Shown here piece after piece: positions 5,611-58,066 of a DNA stretch of 64,000 nt. The notes under the pieces are model-generated. The model was not told the origin of the DNA and searched no databases. It saw nothing but the letters and a program-made list of their open reading frames with translations. Made by a program: the position numbers and the translations under genes. How positions within the stretch are numbered: position 1 is the first letter of the stretch; each line of letters opens with the position of its first letter. Source of the DNA: a virus; the IMG/VR virus record IMGVR_UViG_3300045988_154566, positions 6,167 to 70,166 of that record, one strand, 5' to 3'.

Positions 5611-5794
5611 GTGAGTGCGGATTAGCAGTTTCCGCACTTATCTAATAAACTAGACATAAAGCCAATAATGAACTCCATAAGACTAAGAAGTTCGTCATCA
5701 GATATGACTATGTGTGTAAGTACAAAGTCAATCTGACTATTGGCTTCTGTGACAGTGGAGCATTGCTCCACCATCACTATTGCTTCTATAAAGG

Positions 5795-17031: not shown

Positions 17032-18066
17032 ATGGCATTACAGTATAGTGATATGTTAGCATTATGTAAGACAGTTGCTAAAGCTAATCCAGCTTCTCCT
17101 GTTGCTTATAGCTTCGGAGATAAAAAGTTTGGTTATGAAGATATGCATGAAACACTTCGTTCAGAGTTTCAGGCTTTAGCTCCAGATTACAGAACTTATG
17201 TAGAAAATCAGAATACAATATTCAGATTATTAGAAGAAACTTTCGATGATGTTTTACCAGAGAGAGTTATGCAGCAATATTCTCAGTTTGCTGAAATTAA
17301 GACATTCGCACAGGGAGATAAACCTATTTTCTTACAGAGAATTACAACAGCTTCTCGTAGAAGAGCAAAACAGTTCATCGGTAAGGTTGGTTTAAATGGT
17401 ATGTACGAGGCATTCAGACTTGATGGTCGTGCTTACGAAGTAACAACTAACGCTATTGGTGGCGCTGCTAGAATTGGTTTCGAGGAATTCCTTGATGGTC
17501 GTGTAAATATGGCAGATGTCCTTGATATCGTTCTTGAAGGTCTTGATGAATGTATTTATGTTGAGATTGAGAAGCAGTTAATTGGAGCTGCTAAGAATGT
17601 TCAGGCAGCAAATAAGCATTCAGATAGTAAATTCAATGAATCACAGATGGATAGATTACTTTCTATCGCTGATTCTTATGGAAAGTCAACAATTTATTGT
17701 ACTTTTGAATTTGCAGCAACAATGATTCCTTCAGAGGGTTGGATTTCAGATGAGATGAGAAATCAGAAGTGGAACAATGGTTACCTTGGTAACTATAAGG
17801 GACATACAGTAATTGTATTACCACAGTCTTTTGAAGATGAAACAAATACAACAAAGGTTATTGACCCATCATATGCATTTATTATTCCTACTGGTGCTGA
17901 AAAGCCAGTTAAGATTGCATTTGAAGGTGGTACAATCGCTAAGAGCTTCACAGGATATGATAATTCAGAAGAAATTCATATTTATAAGAAGGTTGGCGTA
18001 AGAGCTATATTCTCTAATGCAATTTGTGTATATCAGAACACAACTCTTAAGAGAACAGCAGCCTAA
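17032..18066 (+). CDS. major capsid protein candidate
   Basis: 344 aa, AGGAGG ribosome-binding site, strong terminator directly downstream. Assigned from position and size, not from recognised motifs. Confidence 0.45.
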   Translation: MALQYSDMLALCKTVAKANPASPVAYSFGDKKFGYEDMHETLRSEFQALAPDYRTYVENQNTIFRLLEETFDDVLPERVMQQYSQFAEIKTFAQGDKPIFLQRITTASRRRAKQFIGKVGLNGMYEAFRLDGRAYEVTTNAIGGAARIGFEEFLDGRVNMADVLDIVLEGLDECIYVEIEKQLIGAAKNVQAANKHSDSKFNESQMDRLLSIADSYGKSTIYCTFEFAATMIPSEGWISDEMRNQKWNNGYLGNYKGHTVIVLPQSFEDETNTTKVIDPSYAFIIPTGAEKPVKIAFEGGTIAKSFTGYDNSEEIHIYKKVGVRAIFSNAICVYQNTTLKRTAA

Positions 18067-34200: not shown

Positions 34201-34533
34201 TCAGGAAGACTTGCTATCTTACATCAAAAAGAATTAGTTTTAAATAAGGATGATACAGAAAATATTCTTAATGCAGTTGAATTTGTTCGTGGAATTGCAA
34301 ACTCTATAGGAGCTTCATTATTATCTCAACTTGCAGGAATGACAAATGCTACTTCTAGTATTCGTCCTGTTGGAGCTGATTACTTATCTTCTAATGTTAG
34401 TAATGCTTCTAGTAGTAATGTTTATAATGTTACTGCGGAGTTCCCTAATGCGGAAAGTGTTCAAGACATTAGAGAAGCTTTATTAAGTTTACCTAATTTA
34501 GTTAGTCAAAAAGTTAATGAAAAAAATATTTAA
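25288..34533 (+). CDS. tail tape measure protein, 3081 aa, with TP901-family core region near the N-terminus
   Basis: Motif KALNTTTTAYTNAALIFYQQGLD...MASVTGETAADVSSYMTAIWNNF. Extensive coiled coil. GGSGGGDATD linker. C-terminal globular region. Confidence 0.8.
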   Translation: MAGRKRIDIDIGFNTDTSRAKAQIQDLQKQIVNLSVAAKQNTATNTLSSDISKAVIEASKLNGILSQSMTFKGDNLDLSKFVTNLNKSGTTISQVRKNLESLGPQGQKAFTSLAQSIMSAEVPLRQSEGLLKSFSTTLTNSAKWTVASGAVHQVQTEFSKAFEYSRKLDKSLNEIRIVSGESSDNMAKFAKQANESAKALNTTTTAYTNAALIFYQQGLDTAAVKERTDAVTKMASVTGETAADVSSYMTAIWNNFNDGSKSVEYFADVLTALGAATASSTDEIAEGLEKFASIGNTVGLSYEYATSALATVVAETRQSADTVGTAFKTLFARIQDLELGNTLDDGTTLGQYSKALEAIGVNIKDSKGEIRDMDDILDDMGSKWKTISKDTQIAVAQAVAGTRQYSQLIALMDKWDVFQENLNTAKGAEGSLQQQADIYAESWDAASKKIKTSLEEIYSNLIDSKTMVDLMKFLSKAIEGFGHFIDSVGGVRTAFILLANTIISNQGPQISKYVDKVVDNFKIKFGIMGKEIEATREKAQKEYKAMIAGMDIKTPEDRAQVANMKANYDIENAIFEKKKELAKINANLTESQIEQIANEKAQLKQLEEESEVTARIYDTKKKARHAAHDDVLSLGSRFKNTNLSLDKVENIKIRNDILSKFLPEDTLQEAYAKKVLLGEMDEMESEKYLQENYSKNERVRQRNQNFRDMVKQVDPNKKFSKQERRPSRTTKIEDYNSYAQVLEDTRKALESQDYQEPIQKILQKQFTKDYNAAIQAYETNETNISTSNKVLNLFDMEKVKSGKFSLKGMQETLSTLYNSSKENKRMIDDLMRLDEYKEKDDIKKLITGQDVEGINKSDYTHMLQTIEKKRAGYLTKRDDISGNIRGLLQDYGFGAPDVAKMSDALDKQHKIIEDTDESLTAHVKVLLDVQNHSNSVVDSINKMGFSVGSIGENFTNGANAMSNFAMTANSVYSVFESIEEMISGDLKVSMGSLIGLFTQAGFAISGLIQTGKAFSQFSNMLSGTIGNRVTLKDQQALENRRYNLVEARNNIDTSFKEYLSKKSRLKDDEDKQKRLSNFTSLLNEDGIELPDNLSAMSKDERRAWLGQISGHSITKNNTTSQHSSIYGLTGELMSDEGWANFTESLKQRRAAAQEEQDIIATTQAVEGRGVQIASKVSKAMGAIGIAVQVATAAYAAYNLIHKAVVANLQKEAEESLRVAQNTTEKTKQYKEESDKVSELKKAYDELYNKYNDGELSASALKRQSYDLCMQYGEEELAVKALSGEYKSLEEAMKSIESEKTEKTLNSAKQEQKNYEVALRDQLSASAEEDSSRRDFVNSIETIDLKGMVTRNAKEDNLANQLQKLGVEFINKDHINLQSFVAAIKTDTDAVQSVLNESDTSAARQLRQYLSSAKDQVDGLTESIDTAHEAQKTMIIDAQNFDAIDSIEDYTATWRSMVHEALSKGVYDSIEDASKWANSYMSAIDSVKEYAQTATVADTLAGNTSEEVLKEVLEQKKNIDNFTAEDYVNELGDKAQYKYRTIGVLQGGVGGGTPNEADSYVTDANLGKKEIDQDAVAEWRENKKRNYGLSNSLDYYTSMTQALDKYSAYEQSFFTNFSQKLSEAIEKNDGNVETALSSLAEKIPNVFKEAAEKGEADYAQTLIDGLITDKTELTDKQKKQVLNTLDFSGVTSEGVSVDEKTLNNMDYSSQATLMAAFYGEKLKLIEETGDAAREEAQKEAETYKETYKDQIDDYKEAQKELELLSEDSDANFTQESINKLADEFNGDNLNDLKNKDAFTELTKVMQKQGYKTDDNTMKQFFEGLSNKKYADQLEKLDNLVKDLTVDSEDWNKVVKAGKKAQEANSSVIDDIQAGYKTLTSAMKDYNANGYFTMDNLQAILELEPKYLSALEWDGSQFKLNTADLKEMTKAKLADMAVSQAEITVAKVKSILSSDNIVNAAMELEMTQKLTTSTMSYAESLIASARGLATNNKELQNNAAAMQQVMMYIDAQENAIAAIGNVYDNIDAHFDKIMGGSSAASSSKKKYFEDEFDRYWEFKKAIDEVAHAMERLEDEQDNLYGQELIDNLNQVNDLLVTQKANYEALYEAQKVEAEELRSSLSAYGALFDEEGRLTNYADITTSMFAQYGNVDDSETYEEFKKYLERYDTLYYSEMVDTTDKIVEESKKILENNLKIWETDIQINLDLKQAERDWNDFLKEINRNFKSTFSDAGQEIKYALKKAQTFNLDDGTLASDIQKVENINYEINQLQNGGTSNLFNSLSEAENALKEANKTLQDDAEELFSTYEEGWNAYLDYIDDVGTHLDNINKKYEELNEELEHQANLISLLYGDQAYDKLAKLYDTQQKNNLAQLKSLRQQTDFYQAQYEKAVQLDGEDSKSAEKWLEKKRQAMQDLRSEEETYIKTIQSKYNNTIDSIIQKARMATNGGVDTDWARTMYELTKTKSEGNYDDVERVYQLTSLQSKWNKLIADTTGTKNQEKLKKIMDEQLANLEKKSTLTEYDIGLAEKALAVEQARIALEQAQNSKDSMKLTRNAEGNWSYQYVADEDNVAEKQQDLLDAINDKYEYVKSANQQALDDLLQYEEDFWTKYAEIMKDVSLSDEERQSRIAQLYEMYYGEEGILTQAYQDSAQTQQDLNLVTAEQLWAIYESDQEKYATMTAAEQELIDGLKNGTIKSYEDIQEAGQRVNDESLDYWNTTAQAMADAWNADDGMSIKSQVNEALKDCSTALGDYNADVDAGCAAAGEDFTDVGNAIDDVSNAIDDLDGTTEDYIDNAEKLIDDYINSLKELESQWKEVKSIVEKNIETMKKYELAAKSASTAYSPAAATPSSGGSGGGDATDIADNNPPEETVHYYAVDSAPDGDGLVVTVYERTGNSEKAIGRDGEEPKDYRDHRISSVWEARDYINQVLSDNGYDEELDPNVNVQTSGYKYYLDNARVNTYSFDTGGYTGEWDNSGRLAILHQKELVLNKDDTENILNAVEFVRGIANSIGASLLSQLAGMTNATSSIRPVGADYLSSNVSNASSSNVYNVTAEFPNAESVQDIREALLSLPNLVSQKVNEKNI

Positions 34534-34637: not shown

Positions 34638-37600
34638 ATGTCAAATAAGAATAGTCAAGATATTTCTTCAGCTTTATTAGCGGCATTTGAGACTTATAGT
34701 AAAAGTACTGCCGCGTCAGTAAAAGCATCTGTTACTATTGAATGTACAATTACTGGTATCGTAGATAGAGCTGCGGGCATCTATACTGTTAAATATCAAA
34801 ATAATATATTTAATGTATATTCTAATAATGCTGACTACTCTATTAAAGATATTGTCTATGTTTTAGTTCCAGAAAATGATTTCTCAAAAAAGAAAATGAT
34901 TGTAGGGTTAATAAAACATAATACGGATGAATCAGCATCTTCCGCGGAAGAAGATTCTACAGCTAGTCAATATCTTGTAATTGCAGACAATGTTTTAGAT
35001 ATTAACTCAAAAGAAGTTATAAACCTTTGTTCTTTTCATACAGAAACTAAAGATGTTTTTTCAAGTAATGTAGATTCCGCAGACCAAGTTTTAATGCCAA
35101 AATATTTAAAGCATTATAAAACTTATGCTTTATCTATGAAAGTAAAAACTTCATTAATAGATAGTCAAAGAGTTGGCGGAGATTATGGTATTACATTACA
35201 GCTTCCATTCTTCAGATATAGTGAAGATAATGATAAAATGATTAATGATAAAACTTTAACATTTGATATTCATAAGATGTTAGGTAATCCATATAATTAT
35301 CAAGTTTGGACACAGCAAACTTATTATTTTACATTAGAAGAAAATGATGAAGAATTTTATGATAGCCGCAGAAGCCCCATTATTTCTGCTTTTGTAAGAG
35401 ATTTTAATCAAGATGAAAATGTTGATACAAATGATATTTTTATTAAAGATGTTCAATTTTTAGTTGTTCAAGCTTTAACAGAAATAGAAATGCAAGGTAA
35501 TTATTTAAAAATAAAATCTGATACTGGAGAATACTTTTTAAAGAATTACTTTGAAACAAAGAAAATTTTAAAACCAATTTTAAAGATAAAAGGACAAGAA
35601 AAGAATATCAGCGGATATGATTGCTATTGGTTTGTAAAAGATGCTTCAGTTAATGCAACTAACAATCCTGACTATTGTACAAAAGGCGGACTTGGTTGGA
35701 AATGTCTTAATGAGAAAACTAAAGTTAATACAAATGACAATGGAGATACTTCTTATCAATATGTTACAAATATATACAGTTATCAAGTAAAAATAGAAGA
35801 TGTTAAAACATCATTGATTTATAAGTGTGTATTAACAAAAGATACAGAAAGAATTTCTGGTGAATTAGAAATTGTAAATCTTAATTCAGATATTAAGTTT
35901 AGTTTATATTCAACAACAGGAAACAATAATTTTGTAAAAAATATAGGTAAAGTAAGTCTTGCAGCAGACCTTTATTATCCAGGAATTACAGATAATGAAA
36001 ATTCAACAAGTAATTTTAAATATTACTGGGATAGATACGCAAAAGATGGAACTTACTTAGATAGTGATTTCTTAACTTTTAGTGATATAAATACAAAAGA
36101 GAATGGACATTATATTACTAAAGGCGCTTATCCGACTTCTAAAATGCAAGATAGCAATTTAATCACTTGTACAGTATTTGAAGAAAAACAACGCGCGGAT
36201 AGTAGTATAGAGAGCATTAACCTTGGTAGCGCGGATTTAGCTATCGCCGCAGTAGATAGCTATGAATATGTAACTTATTTATATAATGCAACTAGATTAT
36301 ATAATTATGATTCAGATGGAGATTCTCCTTTTACAAGATATTATGATAAAGATACGGTAAACTTAAATGAAATTGAACCAATTACATTTAAAATATATAA
36401 AGCAAATGGAAATGAATTAACAGAAACAGAATATTTAGCTGTTAATATTATTTGGAGAATACCAAAGAAATCTTTGATTAATATTAATCCTGTTTTAATT
36501 AGTGAGGAAGACGATAATTATTATTATGTTCGTGGCGAGAGAAATCTTCCTTATACTATTGACGCTACATACAATCCTTCAAAAAGCAATAATGAGATTA
36601 CTTTATATACCACTTTTGCGGGAGTTGAGATGTTAAATAATACATCATTTACTTTTGTTAAAGATGGCGGAAATGGTACTAATGGTACAAACTATAGTGC
36701 AGAAATTATTATTGATGGATACGCATATGGACAAAAGAATCCTACTACAAATGGAGTATATAAACTTTGCTATGTTTATTTTGCGGATAGCGCAAAATGG
36801 ATGTTATATGATATGCAAAATAATCAATTAATTGATGATACAGCATTAAGAACTCTTGATGTAAGAGTATTTAGTCAAGGTAAAGTTATTACTGATGATA
36901 CCTTATATACAGTAACATGGAGTATGTTTGATGATAAAGCAACTAATCCTTGCTTTACTTTTGATAGTACAAAAAATCAGTTAGTTCCATCAGTAGCATT
37001 TAACCCTTCAGAAGTATATTGCAATATTTTGCAAGCAGAAGTAACTGTTACAGATACAAGCGTTGCTAATAAGAATTGGATAATTTATGCTTACTATCCT
37101 ATTGAAATTACTTATTGTGCAAAAGAATCAGATGTTATTTATACAGATGAAAAAGGTAATAAGAGATGCGCGGTTCCAGTGCTTAATGGCGGATATTCAG
37201 AAGTCTTATTTGCTTCAGATGGTACAAATCCAAAGTGGGACAATAGTTCTAACTTTACCGTTGTAGATAATCTATATAGTATAGATAGCTCAAATGTTTA
37301 TGATTATGAATGGGAGACTTCAGAAAACTTAAACATTTCAGAATATAGAAGTGCAGACTTACCAGAAAATCAGAAAGTAATTGAGCCTACTTCAAAATTT
37401 GATAGTGGTATTAGTAAGAACTATATAAAGACAACACTTACTCTTGATTCAAAGACTAAAGAGGGATTAATTAAAACAAAAGCAGAATATGATAAAGAAG
37501 CAGAAGATTATCAAAATCAAATTACTACTTTAACAACTAATTATTCAACTTTAAAAAATGTTTTAAGCTATTTCCAATATAAACCTTGGTTAAATGTTTT

Positions 37601-40076
37601 AACAGAAGTAAAAGATTATATTTCTCTCAATAATGATATGATTAGAACTTTAAGAGAAAGTGAAAGCCTTTTAAGTGATGTTAGTAAATATTATCAACAA
37701 CATACTGAAATTGGTGGAATTGTAACTATTGATTTTGTTACTTATAATAACTATATCAATAGAGATGTTACAAATGCATTGTTAGGTAAAACTTTGCCAG
37801 TTTCTTTTTCGACTAGAAAGATTGATTTAACAGATAGACAACTCGCTAGATTGAAAGAAAAACTTGATATTTCTGTTTATAATGTATTTGTAAATTATGT
37901 AAATATATATAATGATAAAGTAGAGGTAGTTCTTCAATATAAGAATCAGTTAATTGCAGAAGAAGGCGGTGCTAGAAAGTATGAAAGCAAAAGAGAAAAA
38001 CTCTATAATCTTTGTTCTGGAGATTCTACTAGCGCAATTACAGAAGGAATCTATCCTGTTTCCCGCATGATTTCTACTTTTGATAAGATTAAAACAACAT
38101 ATAAAAATTCCTATGATAATCTGGTCGCATTACAAAATCATTTCACAGAGATAAGTTCTTATTCTGAATACAGCGATATTTTTGAAAATATGAAAAAGAC
38201 ACTGTTAGATTATGGAAAATTATCAGATTCAGAAGAGAATATGGAAATTAAAGAAAATCTTACACTTGATTACAATAATAAATTAAGTTTATTATATACC
38301 GATAAAATAGCAGCTATCGTTCAAGCCAATGCTTACGATGTCTTAATTGGTGTTGAAATGAATAGAATTATTCATATTAAACCAATTATTATGTTGTATA
38401 ATAGATATGCTATGTCTAATATTAATGGTTGGGATGGTAATAAAATATATACAGGTGATGAAGATAGTTTCTTATTAGCTCCGCAAGTAGGCGCAGGTAA
38501 AAAAGATAGTAATAATAAATTCACAGGTATGGTTATGGGACTTAGAAATTTGAATAAGACATCTGCCGCAGAAGACACTCAGGTAGGTCTTTTCGGATAT
38601 AGCGGTGGCGCGCAATCACTTTTCTTAAATGCAGAAGATGGTTCTGCAATATTTGGTCTTCATAAAAGAGGGCAGATTATCATTGACCCATTAACATCAC
38701 AAGCCTTATTATATAGTGGTAATTTTTATAAAGAATTTGATAGAGATGGAAAACCAATCAACTATTCTTCTCAAAATAGGAATAACCAAGGAATGCAGAT
38801 TGATTTAACAACACCTAAAATTGAGTTCGGCTCTGGTAACTTTATAGTCACTCCAGAAGGACATGTAACTGCAAAAGGTGGAGGTTCAATTGCAGGTTGG
38901 AAAATTGGAAATACAACTTTAACAAGCTCTGATGAAAATATTACTTTAGATTCTGCGAATACTAAGATTTATGGTCATAATCATTCTACTCTTGACAGTA
39001 CTAATGATGGATTCTACTTAAGCCCAGATGGTATTAGTATAGGTTCTTGTTTTAGAGTAAATCAAGATACTTTATTATTAGGAAGTTTAAGAAGTGGTAG
39101 TAGACATTGGGAGTTAAAATATGACGCAGAAAATAGCTATTTAAGATATGGTACAAAAGGAAATAGTAATTCTGTTTATGTGGGAACAGATGCAATCACT
39201 TTAGGTCGAAAATTCAGTGTTAATAACGAAGGTGAATTAGCTGCGACATTAGGACACATAGGTGGCTGGGAAATTGGAGATAAGAGTTTATCTTGCGATA
39301 GTAGAAGTGCTTCTATGTATAGCGGCAGTCATACTACTTTAGATTCAACATCGAGTGGATTTTATTTAAGCTCAGATGGCTTTAGTCTTGGTAAACATTT
39401 TAAATTTAAAGAAAATGGAGAAGGAACTGTTGGTAATTTATATGTTTCTGATTCGGGTTGGTTAGCTTTAAATGTAAATGAAGATAATGAATGTGGTATA
39501 GGTACTAGCTCATCTGCATTTTATGGCGGAAGTCCAGACTCAAGTACGGCACCTTTTAGAGTTACTTATGATGGTCATTTATATTCAACTAATGCTACTA
39601 TATCTGGTGATATAACTGCATCAAGTGGAACTATTGGTGGTTGTACTATCGAAGAAGGTGTCTTAAAAGTAGATACTATAAATATTAGAACTGGTGCGGT
39701 TACTGCAAATGAAATTGCTTCACACACTATTACATCTGATGAAATAGATACTGATAGATTATATTGTAATGCTGCGAATGTTAAAGGAACTCTTACTGCA
39801 AATCAAATAGATTGTCAAGGTGTTATTGATGCTGGAACTATTAATGCAGACAATATCACAACAGGAACTCTTTCTGTAGAAAGATTAAGTGGTCCAAAGC
39901 ATACGAAGGCTATTGAATGGTATAGCTATTTTATACCTGGTTTTACGCAAAAAACAATTCAGGTTAATGAAAAACAGGCTGATGGGACATATCTTTTTCA
40001 TGATGTTACAATTGATGTAATTCAAAGTAATACTCAACATTACTTCTTAGCAGCAGTACCTGATACTGGTAATTAA
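34638..40076 (+). CDS. large tail protein (1812 aa; distal tail, fiber or tail-associated candidate) with internal C-terminal repeats
   Basis: AAAGGAGG ribosome-binding site. Repeated blocks GGGSIAGWKIGNTTLTS...HSTLDSTNDGFYLSPDGISIG and HIGGWEIGDKSLSC...HTTLDSTSSGFYLSSDGFSLG. Confidence 0.5.
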   Translation: MSNKNSQDISSALLAAFETYSKSTAASVKASVTIECTITGIVDRAAGIYTVKYQNNIFNVYSNNADYSIKDIVYVLVPENDFSKKKMIVGLIKHNTDESASSAEEDSTASQYLVIADNVLDINSKEVINLCSFHTETKDVFSSNVDSADQVLMPKYLKHYKTYALSMKVKTSLIDSQRVGGDYGITLQLPFFRYSEDNDKMINDKTLTFDIHKMLGNPYNYQVWTQQTYYFTLEENDEEFYDSRRSPIISAFVRDFNQDENVDTNDIFIKDVQFLVVQALTEIEMQGNYLKIKSDTGEYFLKNYFETKKILKPILKIKGQEKNISGYDCYWFVKDASVNATNNPDYCTKGGLGWKCLNEKTKVNTNDNGDTSYQYVTNIYSYQVKIEDVKTSLIYKCVLTKDTERISGELEIVNLNSDIKFSLYSTTGNNNFVKNIGKVSLAADLYYPGITDNENSTSNFKYYWDRYAKDGTYLDSDFLTFSDINTKENGHYITKGAYPTSKMQDSNLITCTVFEEKQRADSSIESINLGSADLAIAAVDSYEYVTYLYNATRLYNYDSDGDSPFTRYYDKDTVNLNEIEPITFKIYKANGNELTETEYLAVNIIWRIPKKSLININPVLISEEDDNYYYVRGERNLPYTIDATYNPSKSNNEITLYTTFAGVEMLNNTSFTFVKDGGNGTNGTNYSAEIIIDGYAYGQKNPTTNGVYKLCYVYFADSAKWMLYDMQNNQLIDDTALRTLDVRVFSQGKVITDDTLYTVTWSMFDDKATNPCFTFDSTKNQLVPSVAFNPSEVYCNILQAEVTVTDTSVANKNWIIYAYYPIEITYCAKESDVIYTDEKGNKRCAVPVLNGGYSEVLFASDGTNPKWDNSSNFTVVDNLYSIDSSNVYDYEWETSENLNISEYRSADLPENQKVIEPTSKFDSGISKNYIKTTLTLDSKTKEGLIKTKAEYDKEAEDYQNQITTLTTNYSTLKNVLSYFQYKPWLNVLTEVKDYISLNNDMIRTLRESESLLSDVSKYYQQHTEIGGIVTIDFVTYNNYINRDVTNALLGKTLPVSFSTRKIDLTDRQLARLKEKLDISVYNVFVNYVNIYNDKVEVVLQYKNQLIAEEGGARKYESKREKLYNLCSGDSTSAITEGIYPVSRMISTFDKIKTTYKNSYDNLVALQNHFTEISSYSEYSDIFENMKKTLLDYGKLSDSEENMEIKENLTLDYNNKLSLLYTDKIAAIVQANAYDVLIGVEMNRIIHIKPIIMLYNRYAMSNINGWDGNKIYTGDEDSFLLAPQVGAGKKDSNNKFTGMVMGLRNLNKTSAAEDTQVGLFGYSGGAQSLFLNAEDGSAIFGLHKRGQIIIDPLTSQALLYSGNFYKEFDRDGKPINYSSQNRNNQGMQIDLTTPKIEFGSGNFIVTPEGHVTAKGGGSIAGWKIGNTTLTSSDENITLDSANTKIYGHNHSTLDSTNDGFYLSPDGISIGSCFRVNQDTLLLGSLRSGSRHWELKYDAENSYLRYGTKGNSNSVYVGTDAITLGRKFSVNNEGELAATLGHIGGWEIGDKSLSCDSRSASMYSGSHTTLDSTSSGFYLSSDGFSLGKHFKFKENGEGTVGNLYVSDSGWLALNVNEDNECGIGTSSSAFYGGSPDSSTAPFRVTYDGHLYSTNATISGDITASSGTIGGCTIEEGVLKVDTINIRTGAVTANEIASHTITSDEIDTDRLYCNAANVKGTLTANQIDCQGVIDAGTINADNITTGTLSVERLSGPKHTKAIEWYSYFIPGFTQKTIQVNEKQADGTYLFHDVTIDVIQSNTQHYFLAAVPDTGN

Positions 40077-53266: not shown

Positions 53267-54598
53267 ATGGCGTTACATGGACACGCTAAAATTGAATTAA
53301 CAAACGCAAAGACTGGAGAAGTTCAGATTATTGAAGAAGATAATATGATTACTAATGGACTTGCTAATTTATTTTCTCAAATACCTTATATGTATGCAAT
53401 ATCTTCAGTACAAGACCAAAATTTACTAAATAATTTTTTACCTTTAAATAACAAGGCAATGGGAGGTCTATTATTATTTCAAAATCCTTTAAATGAGAGT
53501 ATAGATAATATTACAATACCTAAAAATTCAGACAATCCTATTATTGGTTATGCTTCAAATAATGTTAATAATGGTTCAGATATTAAAAGAGGTTCTCGTA
53601 ATTTAACTGAAAGTATTAAATTAGATAATGGTTATAAATTTGTATGGGATTTTTCAACATCTCAAGGTAATGGACAGATATCGGCTTTAAGCTTGACACA
53701 TGCTGATACGGGTTTAAATCCTATAAGTATGAATATAGTAGATACAGCACATGGCATATTAACATCACAGGATTCTAACATATATACTTATGTACAGTAT
53801 ATATGTGATTTTGATTGGAATTCTAATATTGCAACCTGTATTGAAACTATAGATTCAACGCATCTTAGAATTACAAAATTAAAAATAGTTATAGGTGATA
53901 CTATATCTATAAATGATAAGATTGGCTCAATATTTGTTATTTCTCAAACAACTAAAGAATTATCTACAGCATTAGCAAAAATTACTTACTTACATTGGAG
54001 TCCGAGTGATGATGATTACTATTATGGAATGGCAGGTGATAGTTATAATTCAGGTGGTACAATGTATTTTTATAGAATATCTAAATCAGATTATACATTA
54101 GATACAAATTTCACATTTACATGGAGAACAAATGTTTCTTATGTATATGGATATAATTCAAAATTAACACATAAAAATATATTATATATTGGTTCAAAAG
54201 ATAGGCAAATACTTAAAATAAATTTATCTACAAAAAATGTAGTCTCTATTAACGGTTTAGGTTATACAATTGTAAATGATAATAAAAGAGATATTCTTCA
54301 TGCTGGAAACATTTTTATTTTAGAAAATGGTAATATAGTATCTCGTAATAATACTGTAAATTTTTTTAATACTGGTACTAATGGAGATAATGAACAAGCA
54401 ATATTTATAGATTCAACTAAACGTAAAGTATTATGTATTAAAACATCATATTCTTATGGCAATGCTTATATATATTTTAATATAGGTATACTAAAAGATT
54501 ATCTTGCAACTATTAATAATCTTGATACTCCAATAACTAAAACTTCAGACCAAAGTATGAAAATTACTTACACAATTACAGAAGTGGAGGATAAATAA
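53267..54598 (+). CDS. tail fiber or receptor-binding candidate (443 aa)
   Basis: AAAGGAGATAAAAGGA ribosome-binding site. N/Y/S/T-rich, beta-rich. Confidence 0.4.
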   Translation: MALHGHAKIELTNAKTGEVQIIEEDNMITNGLANLFSQIPYMYAISSVQDQNLLNNFLPLNNKAMGGLLLFQNPLNESIDNITIPKNSDNPIIGYASNNVNNGSDIKRGSRNLTESIKLDNGYKFVWDFSTSQGNGQISALSLTHADTGLNPISMNIVDTAHGILTSQDSNIYTYVQYICDFDWNSNIATCIETIDSTHLRITKLKIVIGDTISINDKIGSIFVISQTTKELSTALAKITYLHWSPSDDDYYYGMAGDSYNSGGTMYFYRISKSDYTLDTNFTFTWRTNVSYVYGYNSKLTHKNILYIGSKDRQILKINLSTKNVVSINGLGYTIVNDNKRDILHAGNIFILENGNIVSRNNTVNFFNTGTNGDNEQAIFIDSTKRKVLCIKTSYSYGNAYIYFNIGILKDYLATINNLDTPITKTSDQSMKITYTITEVEDK

Positions 54599-55032
54599 TG
54601 ACAGCAACTGTAATAAATAGCTTAACTAAAAAAGCTGAAAATTCAGATACTACATACCAAATTGCAGTAAAACAATTTCTAGTAGAACCTTTAAGAGGTT
54701 CTACTGGAGTTAATAATCTTGAAGAACAATTTTTATTAGGAATTGATTGTGTAACAACAGAACAAGAAGATTCTAGTACGCATGTAAAAACAATAGTACA
54801 AGAATTTAGAAACGCGGATTCTGTTACAACTAATTATTATACAATCACTTCAACTATACAACCAGGACCAAGTGCGGGATACACTGCCGCGTATACTGAG
54901 ACAGAAAGACATGTTCTTTCTTTTGTTTCTGCGGCGGGCACTGTTACTGTGGCAACTAAGGTTGTATCAAAAAAGAAAGAAAATAATATTACTTCTACTA
55001 AGACAGTAATTACAAATAGTTTGGCGGGTTAA
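54598..55032 (+). CDS. hypothetical T/S-rich protein (fiber-associated)
   Basis: ATGA overlap with the upstream gene. Confidence 0.4.
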   Translation: MTATVINSLTKKAENSDTTYQIAVKQFLVEPLRGSTGVNNLEEQFLLGIDCVTTEQEDSSTHVKTIVQEFRNADSVTTNYYTITSTIQPGPSAGYTAAYTETERHVLSFVSAAGTVTVATKVVSKKKENNITSTKTVITNSLAG

Positions 55033-55051
55033 AATACCCGCCTTCTTTTTT
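55023..55051 (+). terminator. intrinsic terminator
   Basis: Hairpin GGCGGGTtaaaatACCCGCC followed by TTCTTTTTT. Confidence 0.7.
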
Positions 55052-55136
55052 GTAGTTAGCTGTAATCTAATTTTCTTTGTCAATTCGGACAAGTTTTCAT
55101 TTTAAAAAATAATCGTATGTCTCCTGTTAAATTGCG

Positions 55137-55196
55137 AATTTCTACACGAATCAATTAAAATTTTCCAAAATTTCGTGACAATTCTACACAAATCAC
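55137..55196 (+). promoter_or_regulatory. direct repeats AATTTCTACACGAATCA and AATTCTACACAAATCAC upstream of the 55243 gene module
   Basis: Two 17-nt imperfect direct repeats about 43 nt apart. TATAGT lies at 55212-55217. Confidence 0.3.
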
Positions 55197-55242
55197 TTAA
55201 CGCTATTTTTATATAGTATTGCAAGGGAAAGGAGAAAGAAAA

Positions 55243-55653
55243 ATGTATAATCAAATGCCTTATTTTGGTCAACAAACTCAGTCGCCGTATAGCTTGCCAC
55301 AATACTACCAGCAAGCACCAACGCCGCAACCACAGTTTGTAGCACCACAACCACAACAACCTGCATTAAAGGGAAGACCGGTTTCATCAATAGATGAGGC
55401 TAAAGCCTCTCAGATTGATTTTGATGGAAGTTTATATCTATTTCCAGATATTGCCAATAAAAGAATTTATACAAAACAAATAGGTGAAAATGGAATAGCT
55501 ATAATGAATTCTTATTCTTTGCAAGAAGAAATTTCCACCCTTCCGCAAGAGTATGTAACTAAGGAAGAGTTTGACAAGGTTGTTGCGCAATTAAAGTCTC
55601 TATTGGAAGAAAGAGATAAAAAAGAAACACCGAAAGCAACTATGAGTTTTTAA
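55243..55653 (+). CDS. Q/P/Y-rich protein
   Basis: GGAGAAAG ribosome-binding site. N-terminus MYNQMPYFGQQTQSPYSLPQYYQQAPTPQPQFVAPQPQQP. Confidence 0.5.
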   Translation: MYNQMPYFGQQTQSPYSLPQYYQQAPTPQPQFVAPQPQQPALKGRPVSSIDEAKASQIDFDGSLYLFPDIANKRIYTKQIGENGIAIMNSYSLQEEISTLPQEYVTKEEFDKVVAQLKSLLEERDKKETPKATMSF

Positions 55654-55665
55654 TAGGAGGTTTTA

Positions 55666-55902
55666 ATGAGTAATGGAATAAATCCAATGCAACTACTTGG
55701 AATGATTAGAAATGGTTCTAACCCACAGCAATTAATGCTGTCAATTTTAGAACAGAATCCTAACATGAAGACATTAACAGATTTAGCAAAAGCTAATAAT
55801 GCAAGTGGTATTGAGAATTTTGTTAGAAATTATGTTAATAGTCAAGGCGGGGATTTTGATAAAGATTTTAATGCCTTTAAACAAATGTTGGGCGTTAAAT
55901 AA
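55666..55902 (+). CDS. hypothetical small protein
   Basis: AGGAGG ribosome-binding site. Confidence 0.45.
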   Translation: MSNGINPMQLLGMIRNGSNPQQLMLSILEQNPNMKTLTDLAKANNASGIENFVRNYVNSQGGDFDKDFNAFKQMLGVK

Positions 55903-55929
55903 ATAAATTTTATAAGGAGGACAAAAGAA

Positions 55930-56718
55930 ATGTTCAATTCAAACAGTGGTTATTCATTAGCCGATATTGCTGCGGCAACCGGCAATAATAACTGTAACAA
56001 TGGCGGATGGAATGACGGAGGCGCCTGGTGGATTATTATCTTGTTCTTATTCTGCTTTGCTGGCGGATGGGGAAATGGACGAGGTGGACTCTTCGGAGGT
56101 TCAGATTCTACAGGTAGTGGTATAACAGATGGTTATATCTTAACTTCAGATTTTGCTAACATCGAAAGGAAAATAGACAATGTAAACAACGGTATCTGCG
56201 ATGGATTCTATGCTATGAATACTGGTATGTTAAATGGCTTCGGTCAGGTAAATAACAATATTACACAGCAAACAATAGCAGACATGCAGAATACTAACGC
56301 AGTAACTGCTCAGATTACTGCATTAGGTACTCAGATGAGTCAATGCTGCTGTGATAACAAATATCAATCTGCAACACAAGCTGCTGACTTAAATTATCGC
56401 TTAGCTGAACAGAGCTGCCAGACTCGCCAGGCTATCGCGGACGCTGCACAGGCAGTAACATTAGGAAATGATGCTAATACTCGTAGCATCTTAGCTGCTA
56501 TCCAGGATATGAATACTCAAGCATTACAAGATAAGATTGCTACTCTTACAGCAGACAATCAAGCTCTTAAGTTTGCTGCTTCTCAGCAAGCTCAGAATGC
56601 TTACCTTGTTCACACTTTAGCACCAAGCCCAAATCCTGCATATATTGTTCCTAATCCTTATACAGGAAATTATGGATACAATAACTGCGGTGGATGCGGT
56701 TGTGCATGCGTAGGTTAA
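55930..56718 (+). CDS. Gly/Trp-rich membrane protein with Q/A/N-rich coiled coil and Cys-rich C-terminus
   Basis: NNCNNGGWNDGGAWWIIILFLFCFAGGWGNGRGG transmembrane segment. CCCDNKYQ motif. C-terminal NNCGGCGCACVG. Confidence 0.5.
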   Translation: MFNSNSGYSLADIAAATGNNNCNNGGWNDGGAWWIIILFLFCFAGGWGNGRGGLFGGSDSTGSGITDGYILTSDFANIERKIDNVNNGICDGFYAMNTGMLNGFGQVNNNITQQTIADMQNTNAVTAQITALGTQMSQCCCDNKYQSATQAADLNYRLAEQSCQTRQAIADAAQAVTLGNDANTRSILAAIQDMNTQALQDKIATLTADNQALKFAASQQAQNAYLVHTLAPSPNPAYIVPNPYTGNYGYNNCGGCGCACVG

Positions 56719-56734
56719 TTTAAGGAGGTCTATA

Positions 56735-57157
56735 ATGGAGATTACAGCAAATGCAGTTCAAACAGTAACAGCAAATTCAAATGTAATATTTACAGACACT
56801 CCGGTGTCAGGTAATTGCTCTATTGTTCACAGAGAAGGCTCAGGTCTCGTAAAGTTACGCGGCCTGACTTCTACTCAATGTAGAGCAAGATTTAGAGCTA
56901 GTTTTGGAGCAAATATCGCATTGCCAGATGGCGGTACTGCTGGTCCAATTTCAGTAACTATCTCTCTTGATGGAGAACCAATCTCTGCTACTAGGATGGT
57001 TGTTACACCAGCCGCAGTTAATAATTATTTTAATGTTTCTGCGGATATCTTTATAGATGTACCTAAAAATTGTTGTGCTACAGTGGCAGTTACAAATACA
57101 AGTGGAGTAACTATTGTAGTACAGAACGCTAATTTAATTGTTGAGCGAGTAGCTTAA
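56735..57157 (+). CDS. BclA C-terminal-domain-like (C1q/TNF-like jelly-roll) protein without collagen repeats
   Basis: AAGGAGG ribosome-binding site. About 140 aa, beta-rich, ending ...VVQNANLIVERVA. Pattern resembles the Bacillus BclA C-terminal domain, which ends ...IIIEKVA. Similarity judged from memory. Confidence 0.4.
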   Translation: MEITANAVQTVTANSNVIFTDTPVSGNCSIVHREGSGLVKLRGLTSTQCRARFRASFGANIALPDGGTAGPISVTISLDGEPISATRMVVTPAAVNNYFNVSADIFIDVPKNCCATVAVTNTSGVTIVVQNANLIVERVA

Positions 57158-57171
57158 AGAAAGGAGTCCTT

Positions 57172-57732
57172 ATGAATAACTTAAAAAGTATGAAAGAGCA
57201 ATTAACCAGTGTTGTCCAAGCACAAATGGGAAATATGCAAAATGTAAGTGCTAAAGAGTTAGGCGAAGCTGTTGATATGATAAAGGACCTCTCTGAAGCT
57301 ATTTACTATTGTACAATTACAGAAGCTATGGAAGCAAAAGAAAAGGAAGAACATGAATATGGTAATGTTCATTATTATACAGACAAAAGGTATCCAGATT
57401 ACTACAGAGATGTAGATAGAGAATACGGAAGAATGTATTATGATGATAAACCTGGTGCAGGAACTGGATATACTGGTACACGAATGATGTATACAGAACA
57501 AATTCCAAAGACAATGATGCGTGATTCTAGAGAAGGTAGAAGTGGTATGAGCCGCCGCATGTATATGGAATCTAAAGAAATGCACAAAGATAGTGCTACC
57601 CAAATGCATGAGTTAGATAATTATATTAAAGAATTAGGTAGTGATATCACAGAAATGATAAAAGATTCTACTCCAGAAGAAAAACAAGTTCTCCAACAGA
57701 AAATAGCTAATTTAGCTGCAAAGATAAAATAA
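57172..57732 (+). CDS. Tyr/Arg/Met-rich hypothetical protein
   Basis: AAGGAG ribosome-binding site. Central region HYYTDKRYPDYYRDVDREYGRMYYDDKPGAGTGYTGTRMMY. Confidence 0.45.
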   Translation: MNNLKSMKEQLTSVVQAQMGNMQNVSAKELGEAVDMIKDLSEAIYYCTITEAMEAKEKEEHEYGNVHYYTDKRYPDYYRDVDREYGRMYYDDKPGAGTGYTGTRMMYTEQIPKTMMRDSREGRSGMSRRMYMESKEMHKDSATQMHELDNYIKELGSDITEMIKDSTPEEKQVLQQKIANLAAKIK

Positions 57733-58049
57733 TGAAAATAAATGGTATTGATTGGAGGGTTTACTTTGTTGAAAAAGATAATGAAAAATTACAAAGAAGC
57801 GATGGCTCATATACCCTCGGTTCATGCGATAATAATACTAATATTATTTATCTTAGAGAGGATTTGTATGGAAGGTCATTGAAGAAAGTCTTATGTCATG
57901 AGTTAGCGCATGCGGCAATGTTTTCGTATCAAATTAATTTGACATTAGACCAAGAAGAACTAATTGCAGATTTTATTGCAACCTATGGAGAAGAAATTAT
58001 TGATATTACAAATTTTCTTTTTAATAAGTTAAAGGAGAGGTCTTATTGA
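57732..58049 (+). CDS. small HExxH zinc-metallopeptidase-like protein
   Basis: LCHELAHAAM motif. ATGA overlap with the upstream gene. Confidence 0.45.
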   Translation: MKINGIDWRVYFVEKDNEKLQRSDGSYTLGSCDNNTNIIYLREDLYGRSLKKVLCHELAHAAMFSYQINLTLDQEELIADFIATYGEEIIDITNFLFNKLKERSY

Positions 58050-58066
58050 CCTCTCCTATTTTTTTT
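58033..58066. terminator. bidirectional terminator between convergent modules
   Basis: Hairpin AGGAGAGGTCttattGACCTCTCCT followed by T8. Lies between the plus-strand 58049 stop and the minus-strand 58070 stop. Confidence 0.7.

What the first reader, a model, noticed from the sequence alone, without database searches (positions are those of the whole stretch)
55137..57732. Late-operon module of spore-surface-like and low-complexity proteins
After a terminator, and behind direct repeats AATT(T)CTACAC(G/A)AATCA, four consecutive genes encode unusual proteins. One is Q/P/Y-rich. One is a Gly/Trp-rich membrane protein with a CCC motif and a C-terminal CGGCGCAC. One is a 140-aa C1q/TNF-like protein whose C-terminus (…LIVERVA) resembles the C-terminal domain of the exosporium protein BclA. 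One is Tyr/Arg/Met-rich. None resembles a standard lysis or structural protein. Together they resemble spore coat or exosporium components. The module could be moron cargo acting on host sporulation or the host surface, or it could be an unrecognised lysis or adsorption system.
Basis: partly seen in the sequence, partly recalled or inferred. Interest (0 to 1): 0.6.

Follow-up and report, generated by a model that had tools for sequence, protein, structure and literature searches.

The report
Conserved gut-phage stalk-and-knob late cassette
The flagged genes belong to a six-gene, late-expressed cassette of unknown function that is very common in gut phages; its core is a cysteine-rich membrane-anchored helical protein next to a small protein predicted to fold like the knob of Bacillus spore-surface proteins, but the cassette is not tied to spore formation.

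Summary
Between two terminators (55023-55042 and 58033-58057) lie six tightly packed genes, not four.

No Pfam, NCBIfam or PADLOC family reaches its cutoff, and every matching PHROG is of unknown function.

The cassette is very common: C and D each match more than 7,700 protein clusters. C and D are always adjacent. The order A-B-C-D-E-F recurs in about 25 large-phage loci. A U-A-B'-C-D-E version sits after holin and lysin in small temperate phages, in Butyrivibrio phage Ceridwen and in a Vescimonas fastidiosa prophage. Neither host group forms spores.

C relatives also occur in crAss-like Bacteroides phages and in viruses assigned to methanogens. In TAG-recoded relatives the cassette carries recoded codons, as the structural genes do.

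My best reading (confidence about 0.35) is a portable, virion-independent late assembly: a Cys-locked membrane stalk (C) capped by a trimeric knob (D), with low-complexity partners and a small protease. The sporulation link is not supported.

The parts
55023..55042 (+). Intrinsic-terminator-like hairpin (GGCGGG...CCCGCC followed by a T-run) that ends the preceding tail-region transcript. It overlaps the stop codon of the 144-aa ORF 54598-55032.
   Evidence: sequence
55076..55092 (+). TTTGTCA element, a variant of the TT[GT]GTC[AT] motif that follows terminators in front of other late units of this phage. It is embedded in the palindrome TTGTC-AATTCG-GACAA (55077-55092). I infer it is a late promoter or operator.
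   Evidence: 5 hits in 1.5 kb of late-strand spacers against 12 in about 49 kb of coding sequence. TTTGT[CA]NA repeats occur in the same spacer of relatives. Function is inferred, not shown.
55137..55195 (+). Two direct repeats, AATTTCTACACGAATCA (55137-55153) and AATTCTACACAAATCA (55180-55195), with starts 43 nt apart (their 14-nt cores, 55140 and 55182, are 42 nt apart). The second ends 48 nt before the ATG of A. Possibly a regulator-binding site or part of the 5' leader.
   Evidence: about 5% of simulated spacers give an equally good repeat
55243..55653 (+). Gene A (136 aa from the ATG with a Shine-Dalgarno; an upstream TTG at 55219 is possible). It has a Q/P/Y-rich low-complexity N-terminus, a conserved segment of about 45 aa (KGRPVSSIDEAKA..DFDGS..FPD....IYTK) and a C-terminal helix (YVTKEEFDKV). 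Matches phrog_21718, unknown function.
   Evidence: Homologues found in 35 loci, including small temperate phages.
55666..55902 (+). It is conserved in the large-phage cassettes. A same-sized gene (B', phrog_22984) occupies the same position in small phages, but homology to it is not demonstrable.
   Evidence: (hhalign B against B': 6% probability)
55930..56718 (+). Gene C (262 aa), core gene. Conserved N-terminus GYSLADIAAATG; one hydrophobic helix AWWIIILFLFCFAGGW (aa 30-46) flanked by Gly/Asn-rich stretches; a low-charge N/Q/A/T-rich helical region (one long predicted helix, aa 123-230); invariant QCCCD (aa 139-141) and C163; a Pro/Tyr tail (P.P.PAY.VPNPY); and a C-terminal Cys cluster. Matches phrog_16490.
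   Evidence: CCC in 31 of 31, C163 in 30 of 31, C-terminal Cys in 31 of 31. The family extends to crAss-like, Bacteroides and archaeal-virus records.
56735..57157 (+). Gene D (140 aa), core gene. A free-standing all-beta TNF/C1q/BclA-CTD-type jelly roll with no signal peptide. Conserved C49 and C113-C114; invariant C-terminus ERVA. Matches phrog_20016.
   Evidence: pLDDT 85.8; 834 clusters at 50% identity; the listed best matches are single-domain, 77-196 aa
57172..57732 (+). Gene E (186 aa). Conserved N-terminal helix (ELGEAVDMIKDL), a variable-length Y/R/M/G/D-rich low-complexity middle, the motif RD.REGRS..SRRMYMESKE, and a C-terminal helix. Homologous to the E' genes of small phages (phrog_28802).
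   Evidence: (hhalign 97% over the N-terminal 49 columns)
57732..58049 (+). Gene F (105 aa), translationally coupled to E (TAATG). A mini zincin-like protein with H56-E-x-x-H60 and a downstream EELIADF motif. It resembles SprT, ImmA/IrrE and DUF6782, all just below Pfam cutoffs. Matches phrog_1233.
58033..58057 (+). Strong terminator-like hairpin (10 bp, 6 GC pairs, followed by T8) that closes the A-F unit at the point where gene orientation flips. RuvC, dUTPase and NrdD follow on the minus strand.

Best explanation
Region 55243-58049 is a self-contained late transcription unit of six genes (A-F). It is a copy of a portable cassette that is very common in phages of gut Firmicutes.

Proposed mechanism. 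Steps 1-3 and 5 are inferred; the evidence for step 4 is listed under 'Shown'.
1. C inserts in the cytoplasmic membrane through its single Trp/Gly-flanked helix. It oligomerises through its long, low-charge helical region into a stalk. The invariant cysteine clusters (CCC, C163, C-terminal CxC) lock the stalk, either by disulfide bonds or by bound metal.
2. D forms the trimer typical of its TNF/C1q/BclA fold and docks on the stalk, probably on the conserved Pro/Tyr-rich, Cys-tipped C-terminal tail. ExsFA/BxpB similarly grips the terminal peptides of exosporium fibres, and BclA's C-terminal domain caps its own stalk. D's conserved C49 and C113-C114 may take part in the same cross-links.
3. The low-complexity proteins A and E, and small B, are recruited as partners or matrix components. 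A small protease trims one or more of these components. Here that is the zincin-like F; in small phages it is a non-homologous, Cys-peptidase-like protein U.
4. The assembly is made late in the lytic cycle, independently of virion type.
5. It is exposed or released when the cell lyses.

It is not a sporulation device.

Shown: the gene set, order and conservation; D's predicted fold; the cysteine conservation; membership of the late (TAG-recoded) gene set in relatives; and presence in hosts that do not form spores.

Unresolved: the ultimate biological role (egress, adhesion or protection).
For: - The unit is bracketed by terminators, and each gene has a Shine-Dalgarno or is coupled to the gene before it.
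- The order A-B-C-D-E-F is the same in about 25 loci of large phages.
- C and D are adjacent, in that order, in 44 of the 47 loci where D was found; at the other three the contig or the search yielded no C.
- D is never seen fused to a stalk. There are 834 clusters at 50% identity; none of the listed best matches exceeds 196 aa, and the longer ones examined are start-site or chimeric artefacts. A stalk, if there is one, must therefore be a separate protein.
- C has one hydrophobic helix, a predicted helix of about 110 residues and only 10% charged residues.
- The cysteines are under strong selection: CCC in 31 of 31, C163 in 30 of 31, a C-terminal Cys cluster in 31 of 31; D C49 and C113-C114 in 30 of 31.
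- Portability: the same cassette occurs in phage genomes of 35-45 kb, about 150 kb and about 256 kb. The C family also occurs in crAss-like podoviruses and archaeal viruses. Homing endonucleases are often inserted inside the cassette.
- Late class: in TAG-recoded relatives, A-E each carry 1-3 in-frame TAG codons, as the tail genes do, whereas 10 of 11 minus-strand metabolism genes carry none.
- A protease-like gene accompanies the cassette in both lineages, but the two are not homologous: F (HExxH) and U (phrog_3754).
Against: - No direct evidence shows that C and D bind each other.
- The C model is poor (pLDDT 48), so neither its oligomeric state nor a coiled coil is demonstrated.
- D has no signal peptide, and the positive-inside rule weakly favours an N-out, C-in topology for C. 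The assembly would then sit on the cytoplasmic face of the membrane, an odd place for an adhesin-like stalk and knob.
- In strict anaerobes disulfide cross-linking is uncertain.
- In Bacteroides and archaeal viruses only C is detectably conserved. Its neighbours show no homology to A, B, D or E, so C may work without D.
- No function is demonstrated for any of the proteins.
Confidence: 0.35

Rival explanations
1. Lysis or egress accessory. C would be a membrane effector with the architecture of a class III holin or an i-spanin: a short N-terminal tail, one transmembrane helix, and a large helical domain with essential cysteines. D and the other proteins would regulate or complete it. The cassette would act on the cytoplasmic membrane at the end of infection.
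For: - In small Firmicutes phages and in the Vescimonas prophage the cassette directly follows the holin and endolysin.
- In crAss-like cr116_1 the C homologue lies about 1.2 kb downstream of the holin and the L,D-carboxypeptidase.
- The cytoplasmic membrane is the one target shared by Firmicutes, Bacteroides and archaeal hosts.
- The cassette belongs to the late, recoded gene class.
- Lysis cassettes are the classic portable late modules (established knowledge).
Against: - Separate holins, and XhlA-like genes, are already present upstream in the small phages.
- No muralytic enzyme lies in the cassette, or in the late strand of this window for the genes that were scanned.
- No conserved embedded or adjacent lipoprotein partner exists, and spanins are not expected in monoderm hosts.
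- C shows no sequence similarity to known holins or spanins.
- A TNF-fold trimer and two low-complexity proteins have no precedent in lysis.
Confidence: 0.2
2. Virion appendage. C and D would form a fibre or decoration (helical shaft plus TNF-like knob) attached to the capsid or tail. A and E would act as assembly factors and F as a maturation protease.
For: - C and D have the low-charge, N/Q/T/S/A-rich composition of fibre proteins.
- In this phage the cassette ends the tail-fibre region.
- In cr116_1 it lies just upstream of head genes.
Against: - The same highly conserved pair (D 52-70% identical) occurs in viruses with unrelated virion architectures and genome sizes. This is hard to reconcile with a specific docking site.
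- Receptor-binding knobs normally diverge fast, yet D is the most conserved protein of the cassette.
- C carries a strongly hydrophobic membrane-type helix.
- In temperate siphoviruses the genes lie after the lysis genes, outside the structural block.
Confidence: 0.15
3. Lysogenic-conversion cargo (moron). The cassette would be expressed from the prophage, or released at lysis, to change the bacterial surface, to exclude other phages, or to act on the animal host or mucus as a TNF/C1q-like ligand or lectin.
For: - It sits at the prophage end next to host genes in Vescimonas MM35, and between the lysin and the integrase in Dulem virus 33 and several metagenomic phages.
- It has its own terminator-bounded unit.
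- A small sigma-70 region-4-like HTH gene precedes it in small phages.
- GC3 is raised relative to the rest of the genome.
- Among the records whose source was reported (GenBank phage records, genome bins and the Vescimonas isolate), all come from animal guts or faeces.
Against: - In the large, apparently virulent lineage it is a fixed syntenic part of the late operon.
- In recoded relatives its genes contain in-frame TAG codons, which would block expression outside the late, recoded state.
- Seven co-conserved genes is unusually complex for a moron.
- D has no signal peptide (sequence), and none of the cassette proteins matches PADLOC.
Confidence: 0.15
4. One reading: phage-borne spore-coat or exosporium-like components that act on host sporulation or on the spore surface.
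For: - D's nearest solved structures are all Bacillus exosporium proteins.
- C is Cys-rich like ExsY/CotY. A and E are Q/Y-rich like some coat proteins, and a protease accompanies them. This is a resemblance in composition only (coat-protein comparison from my own knowledge).
Against: - The cassette is present in a phage of Butyrivibrio fibrisolvens and in a prophage of Vescimonas, neither of which forms spores.
- The C family occurs in Bacteroides and crAss-like phages and in viruses assigned to methanogens.
- There are no collagen repeats and no exosporium-targeting motif.
- No family in Pfam or NCBIfam, which include the sporulation families, reaches its cutoff.
- The direct repeats do not resemble the SigE, SigK, SigF or SigG consensus sequences on inspection (sequence).
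Confidence: 0.03

Closest known systems
ExsFA/BxpB (Bacillus exosporium basal-layer protein; PDB 7r1m, 8d02, 9h3d)
   Different: Sequence identity is only 14-16%, and no profile-level similarity was found. ExsFA is a chromosomal gene expressed during sporulation, whereas D is a phage late gene found in hosts that do not form spores. Whether D binds a peptide was not tested.
BclA and F-BclA C-terminal domains (PDB 1wck, 9h38)
   Different: BclA carries its own N-terminal targeting motif and collagen-like GXX stalk on the same polypeptide. D has neither. The candidate stalk (C) is a separate, helical, membrane-anchored protein. Identity is 17%.
TNF-superfamily ligands, EDA-A1 and C1q-family proteins
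   Different: In the cassette the architecture is split over two polypeptides. The stalk is helical rather than collagenous. There is no Pfam TNF or C1q match. The topology is probably inverted or cytoplasmic. No receptor is known.
Phage two-component spanins (lambda Rz/Rz1) and class III holins (T4 T)
   Same: C shares the layout: an N-terminal transmembrane helix followed by a large helical domain with conserved, probably functional cysteines. The gene also lies downstream of holin and endolysin in many genomes.
   Different: There is no homology and no lipoprotein partner. The hosts are mostly monoderm. C is larger, and it travels with a TNF-fold protein and with low-complexity proteins.
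Small ImmA/IrrE, SprT and 'PolyVal' zincins of phages (comparison for F)
   Same: F has the HExxH motif and a downstream acidic/hydrophobic motif. Its Pfam scores fall just below the gathering cutoffs for DUF6782, SprT-like and Peptidase_M78. A 'PolyVal metallopeptidase' closes the analogous gene block in Bacteroides phage C3_41T2LP.
   Different: F is only 105 aa. No XRE-family partner repressor is adjacent. No substrate is known. hhalign to the Bacteroides-phage zincins gives only 11-18% probability.

Membership tests
BclA-type exosporium collagen-like glycoproteins | C-terminal TNF-like beta jelly-roll domain | tested here: met
BclA-type exosporium collagen-like glycoproteins | Collagen-like GXX repeat stalk and N-terminal exosporium-targeting motif on the same polypeptide | tested here: not met
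   D starts at MEITANAVQ and is entirely jelly roll. None of the six proteins has GXX repeats. All listed D-family representatives are short, single-domain proteins.
BclA-type exosporium collagen-like glycoproteins | Sequence-family membership, and expression or function in sporulating cells | tested here: not met
   No hit in Pfam, NCBIfam or a PDB profile search. The cassette occurs in phages of Butyrivibrio and Vescimonas, which do not form spores.
C1q/TNF superfamily | Ten-strand jelly-roll fold | tested here: met
C1q/TNF superfamily | Match to the Pfam C1q or TNF profiles | tested here: not met
   No Pfam family at E <= 1
C1q/TNF superfamily | Homotrimer formation | not testable with these tools
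   Only monomer prediction was available. A trimer is inferred from the fold.
Two-component spanin (i-spanin plus o-spanin) | i-spanin: N-terminal transmembrane helix plus a helical domain with cysteines, encoded near holin and endolysin | tested here: inconclusive
   The architecture and gene position are compatible, but there is no homology and the topology is unknown.
Two-component spanin (i-spanin plus o-spanin) | Partner outer-membrane lipoprotein gene (embedded, overlapping or adjacent) with a lipobox | tested here: not met
   A lipobox-like alternative-frame ORF is seen only in the window and in L041, with a poor signal sequence. It is absent in 10 other C genes. A, B, D and E have no hydrophobic N-terminal segment that could serve as a signal peptide.
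Holins (any class) | Homology to a known holin family, or being the only membrane protein of the lysis cassette | tested here: not met
   No holin hit in Pfam, PHROG or NCBIfam. Separate annotated holins lie upstream in relatives.
Zincin metallopeptidases (SprT / ImmA-IrrE / DUF6782), tested for F | HExxH motif and a profile match above the curated cutoff | tested here: inconclusive
   H56-E-L-A-H60 is present. Scores are 24.2 against a cutoff of 27, 24.1 against 25.6, and 21.7 against 22 bits, all just below. phrog_1233 matches at E 5e-17 but has unknown function.
Moron / lysogenic-conversion cassette | Located between the late or lysis genes and the attachment site, with its own transcription signals | tested here: met
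   Vescimonas prophage and Dulem virus 33. Terminators bracket the unit in the window.
Moron / lysogenic-conversion cassette | Dispensable, variable cargo that is expressed in the lysogen | tested here: inconclusive
   The cassette is fixed and syntenic in the large-phage lineage, and its genes contain recoded TAG codons in relatives, which argues against this. Expression in lysogens cannot be tested here.
Known anti-phage defence systems (PADLOC) | Match to any PADLOC model | tested here: not met
   No hits for A-E. F gives only E 0.018 to LmuC.

The most novel reading that the evidence does not exclude
Gut viruses of three host groups share a previously unrecognised kind of late-made assembly. 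The groups are Firmicutes phages of all sizes, crAss-like and other Bacteroides phages, and viruses assigned to methanogenic archaea. The assembly would be built on the C family: a membrane-anchored helical stalk locked by cysteines or bound metal. In Firmicutes phages it would be capped by a free-standing TNF/C1q/BclA-fold trimer and embedded in Tyr/Gln/Arg-rich low-complexity proteins. The result would be a virus-encoded, exosporium-like or C1q-like matrix or ligand, released at lysis. Its target would be the gut environment (mucus glycans, host receptors, or protection and aggregation of progeny virions), not any host-specific envelope structure.
Probability: 0.12. Interest if true: 0.85.

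Novelty: new variant of a known kind. Interest (0 to 1): 0.6.

Why it matters
- **Abundance without a known function.** The cassette is among the most abundant conserved gene sets of gut Firmicutes phages. No Pfam, NCBIfam or PADLOC family reaches its cutoff for any of the six genes. Each has a best PHROG match (significant for A, C, D and F), and all of those families are of unknown function.
- **Breadth.** The cassette crosses phage morphotypes and genome sizes from 35 kb to 256 kb. The C protein also crosses bacterial phyla and possibly domains.
- **Structural handle.** A confident BclA/ExsFA/C1q-type fold for D, together with invariant cysteine clusters, gives the first structural starting point.
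- **Testable systems.** Two cultured systems make the question experimentally approachable: Butyrivibrio phage Ceridwen and the Vescimonas fastidiosa MM35 prophage.
- **Payoff.** Working out the function would annotate thousands of 'hypothetical' genes in gut viromes. It could also reveal a new late function, whether in egress, adhesion or virion protection.

Tried and rejected
- **Family searches.** Pfam, NCBIfam and PADLOC scans of A-F gave nothing above cutoff. PHROGs gave only unknown-function families.
- **PDB sequence and profile searches.** D gave nothing. C gave only weak coiled-coil noise: monopolin at E 0.014 and influenza HA2 at E 0.15-4. I treat the HA2 hits as chance. They probably explain why GenBank annotators labelled crAss-like homologues 'spike protein/glycoprotein'. 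A, E and F gave nothing.
- **AlphaFold of C** had pLDDT 48 and was not usable for fold search.
- **The afdb50 fold library** was unavailable.
- **Megablast of the region** against GenBank phages found no match.
- **B against the small-phage B'.** Homology is not demonstrable (hhalign 6%).
- **Neighbours of C in Bacteroides phages** show no detectable homology to A, D, E or F. I therefore do not claim the whole cassette exists there.
- **Embedded o-spanin-like lipoprotein ORF** is not conserved.
- **CCTGNTAAATT**, shared upstream of A in several relatives, is not enriched in the window.
- **Rfam and tRNA scans of the window** found nothing.
- **Apparent fusion proteins** (A N-terminus joined to D, and U joined to D) look like deletion or assembly chimeras that break the jelly roll. 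I did not use them as Rosetta-stone evidence.
- **Literature searches** for BclA- or C1q-like phage proteins, for phage Ceridwen, and for crAss-like 'spike' genes gave no functional information.
- **Sporulation-sigma promoter idea.** On inspection the repeats do not resemble the SigE, SigK, SigF or SigG consensus sequences. The spacer instead carries the phage's own TT[GT]GTC[AT] element.

Full report
**What is in the sequence**

The window is part of a large, low-GC (about 31%) tailed phage. It encodes its own sigma factor (7603-8685) and a portal (13317-14921). Two giant ORFs of 3,081 and 1,812 aa follow, and then a long plus-strand late region. After 58 kb, RuvC, dUTPase and NrdD lie on the minus strand. 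Protein C of the finding is 100% identical to a protein found on contigs of up to 147,840 bp.

A terminator-like hairpin at 55023-55042 ends the tail-region genes. The next strong hairpin is at 58033-58057. Between them lie six tightly spaced genes, each with a Shine-Dalgarno or coupled to the gene before it:

| Gene | Coordinates | Length |
|---|---|---|
| A | 55243-55653 | 136 aa |
| B | 55666-55902 | 78 aa |
| C | 55930-56718 | 262 aa |
| D | 56735-57157 | 140 aa |
| E | 57172-57732 | 186 aa |
| F | 57732-58049 | 105 aa |

The two direct repeats exist (55137-55153 and 55180-55195). On their own they are only marginally non-random: 15 of 300 simulated spacers gave an equally good repeat. The motif is not used elsewhere in the window.

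**The fold of D**

I aligned D with 40 homologues and predicted its structure. The model has pLDDT 85.8 and pTM 0.79 and is all-beta.

- Foldseek agrees. Its top hits are F-BclA, BxpB/ExsFA and BclA, with TM-scores of 0.68-0.76.
- The similarity is structural only. Identity is about 14-18%, and no Pfam or PDB-profile hit was found.

D-like proteins are always free-standing. There are 834 clusters at 50% identity; the listed best matches are 77-196 aa, and none carries a stalk. The BFVD library of predicted viral structures holds several proteins of 130-145 aa with the same fold from gut phages. Some are auto-named 'BclA protein'.

**How common it is, and what travels with it**

D and C each match more than 7,700 clusters at 90% identity.

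I collected 50 loci from GenBank phages, genome bins, metagenome contigs and one plasmid record. C and D are adjacent in that order at 44 of the 47 loci where D was found.

Two versions of the cassette exist.

1. **Large phages** (contigs of about 150 kb and about 256 kb). The full order A-B-C-D-E-F is kept, at the same place as in the window: at the end of the tail region, facing RuvC, dUTPase and NrdD.
2. **Small phages** (35-45 kb, many with an integrase).
   - The order is U-A-B'-C-D-E'(-G).
   - U is a 129-aa protein with a Cys...His...Asp pattern (phrog_3754).
   - A is clearly homologous to the window's A. E' matches E with 97% hhalign probability. B' is only a positional analogue of B.
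   - This version sits directly after the endolysin and holin. It is usually preceded by a sigma-70 region-4-like HTH protein of about 75 aa. The integrase or host DNA follows.

Homing-endonuclease genes are often inserted within the cassette. This fits a very conserved sequence that is exchanged often.

**Host range, and the sporulation idea**

- The only cultured Firmicutes phage with the cassette is Butyrivibrio phage Ceridwen. That Butyrivibrio does not form spores is my own knowledge.
- An integrated copy lies in Vescimonas fastidiosa MM35. The order there is tail genes, holin, amidase, U-A-B'-C-D-E'-G, then the host genes ldh, miaB and mutL. The genus is described as non-spore-forming (PMC11334427).
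- The C family (phrog_16490) conserves the hydrophobic helix, QCCC, AASQQAQ, the PAY.V.NPY tail and the C-terminal Cys cluster. It also occurs in many crAss-like phages, in the cultured Bacteroides phage C3_41T2LP and in viruses assigned to Methanomassiliicoccales.
- In those genomes C is followed by a beta-rich protein, a protein of about 170 aa, a short R/Y/E-rich protein and an HExxH protein. I could not show that these are homologous to D, A, E or F. Only C is demonstrably shared.

A role tied to spores or the exosporium is therefore not supported.

**Timing**

- The cassette is on the late strand.
- Its spacer carries a TTTGTCA element. This resembles the TT[GT]GTC[AT] motif that follows terminators before other late units of this phage: 5 hits in 1.5 kb of spacers against 12 in 49 kb of coding sequence.
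- In the relatives of about 256 kb that read TAG as an amino acid, A-E each contain 1-3 in-frame TAG codons, as the tail genes do. One example is the conserved VQNANLIVERVA, which there reads V*NASLIVERVA. Ten of the eleven minus-strand metabolism genes contain none.
- Recoding has been proposed to mark late structural and lysis genes (discussion in PMC12386605).

I conclude that the cassette is a late function. In the large-phage lineage it is a fixed component, not variable cargo.

**Anatomy, and the mechanism I favour**

- **C** has a conserved N-terminal peptide and one strongly hydrophobic, Trp/Gly-flanked helix (aa 30-46). About 210 further residues follow with only 10% charged residues, including a predicted continuous helix at 123-230. 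The protein ends in a Pro/Tyr-rich tail and a Cys cluster.
- **The cysteines are essentially invariant.** In C: CCC in 31 of 31, C163 in 30 of 31, C-terminal Cys in 31 of 31. In D: C49 and C113-C114 in 30 of 31. Cysteine makes up 0.9% of this phage's other late proteins.
- **D** is the most conserved member, 52-70% identical across all loci. Its extreme N- and C-termini are conserved as well. In this fold class the termini lie together at the base of the trimer (established knowledge).
- **A and E** combine short folded or helical parts with Q/P/Y-rich or Y/R/M/G-rich low-complexity stretches of variable length.
- **A small protease-like protein** accompanies the cassette in both versions, but the two are not homologous: F and U.

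The simplest model that uses all of this is a two-piece stalk-and-knob assembly.

1. C forms a membrane-anchored stalk, locked by disulfide or by bound metal.
2. D trimers cap it.
3. A, B and E act as partners.
4. F or U acts as a processing enzyme.
5. The assembly is made late, and it is independent of virion type.

The closest working analogues are ExsFA/BxpB, a free-standing TNF-fold anchor that grips fibre peptides, and the BclA/C1q/EDA design of a stalk with a trimeric head. I put this model at about 0.35. The C-D contact, the cross-links and the final role are all inferred.

**Rivals**

| Rival | Confidence | Main support | Main objection |
|---|---|---|---|
| Lysis or egress accessory | 0.2 | Position next to holin and lysin in two phyla; the cytoplasmic membrane is the universal target | Separate holins are present; no lipoprotein partner; no homology to known lysis proteins |
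| Virion fibre or decoration | 0.15 | Fibre-like composition; TNF-like knobs are common on phages | Conservation across unrelated virion types; a membrane-type helix; position after the lysis genes |
| Moron or surface or host-directed effector | 0.15 | Prophage-end position; a dedicated HTH gene; raised GC3; gut-only sources among records with a reported source | Fixed synteny in large phages; recoded TAG codons |

**Novelty and verdict**

The families are catalogued only as PHROGs of unknown function. I found no paper that deals with them. D belongs to a known fold class, and the stalk-plus-TNF-head logic is known from BclA, C1q and TNF ligands. The split, membrane-anchored, Cys-locked version has no characterised counterpart, nor does its pairing with low-complexity partners and a protease inside a phage late cassette. 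I therefore rate it a new variant of a known kind.

Interest is about 0.6. This is a real, very abundant, uncharacterised cassette. It has a confident structural lead, and two cultured systems are available for testing it. Its function is still unknown.

Noticed in passing
L003-L006 (contigs of about 256 kb), e.g. L003:7324-9802: Close relatives of this phage use TAG as a sense codon. It stands where Gln is conserved, e.g. V*NASLIVERVA. Every plus-strand late gene carries 0-3 in-frame TAG codons, while 10 of 11 minus-strand nucleotide-metabolism genes carry none. The window itself uses the standard code, and no tRNA gene was found in it.
   Followed up: partly
window 10829, 34566, 40292, 48198, 55076: The motif TT[GT]GTC[AT] recurs just downstream of terminator T-runs in front of late transcription units. 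It is about 14-fold denser in late-strand spacers than in coding sequence. It is a candidate promoter element for the phage's own sigma factor (7603-8685).
   Followed up: partly
window 55077-55092: A perfect palindrome, TTGTC-AATTCG-GACAA, overlaps the promoter-like element upstream of gene A. Relatives carry TTTGT[CA]NA repeats in the same spacer; L010 has ATTTGTCGAA about four times at a spacing of about 31 nt. This may be an operator.
   Followed up: partly
window 9996-12815: An HNH endonuclease gene (10927-11667, phrog_59) follows a 307-nt G+C-richer spacer (10620-10926). It lies between a 207-aa ORF (9996-10619, not examined) and an ORF with a weak match to the terminase large subunit (11664-12815). 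This could be a homing-endonuclease or intron-type insertion near the terminase gene. Rfam found no intron at gathering threshold.
   Followed up: no
window 25288-34533 and 34638-40076: Two giant ORFs of 3,081 and 1,812 aa. In related contigs a 2,536-aa ORF in the same tail region upstream of the cassette carries the PhageMin_Tail (tape measure) Pfam domain. That would imply a very long tail.
   Followed up: no
L002:6413-6964; L001:8443-9306; L036:2333-3376; L048:2841-3461: Homing-type endonuclease genes are inserted inside or right beside the cassette in several phages: between B' and C, between D and E', between C and D, and before C. This fits a highly conserved target that is exchanged often.
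   Followed up: partly
L022:1-2000; L028:5751-5963; L029:5653-5898; L038:2627-2830: In small temperate phages a sigma-70 region-4 or LuxR-like HTH protein of about 70-80 aa lies between the holin and the cassette. Pfam Sigma70_r4 matches at E 0.0055, below cutoff. It is a candidate dedicated regulator. No counterpart was seen in the window's cassette.
   Followed up: partly
window 55243-58049 compared with 7603-52287: Cassette genes have higher GC3 (0.19-0.31; C 0.31) than the other late genes (0.175 +/- 0.031). Only two other late genes that were checked reach 0.235-0.25 (8704-9996 and 17032-18066, both in unknown-function PHROGs). This could reflect horizontal origin or high expression.
   Followed up: partly
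proteins P0271, P0273, P0276, P0403: Database proteins that join the N-terminus of U or A to the C-terminal two thirds of D. The junction falls at a shared GSG. They are probably deletion variants or assembly chimeras of the cassette.
   Followed up: partly
L047:3084-3431 and 5664-6059; L048:6341-6805: In crAss-like cr116_1 and in Bacteroides phage C3_41T2LP, small HExxH proteins lie beside the C-homologue gene block: one on each side in cr116_1, one at the downstream end in C3_41T2LP. In C3_41T2LP it is annotated as a PolyVal metallopeptidase. The arrangement parallels gene F, but homology is not demonstrable.
   Followed up: partly
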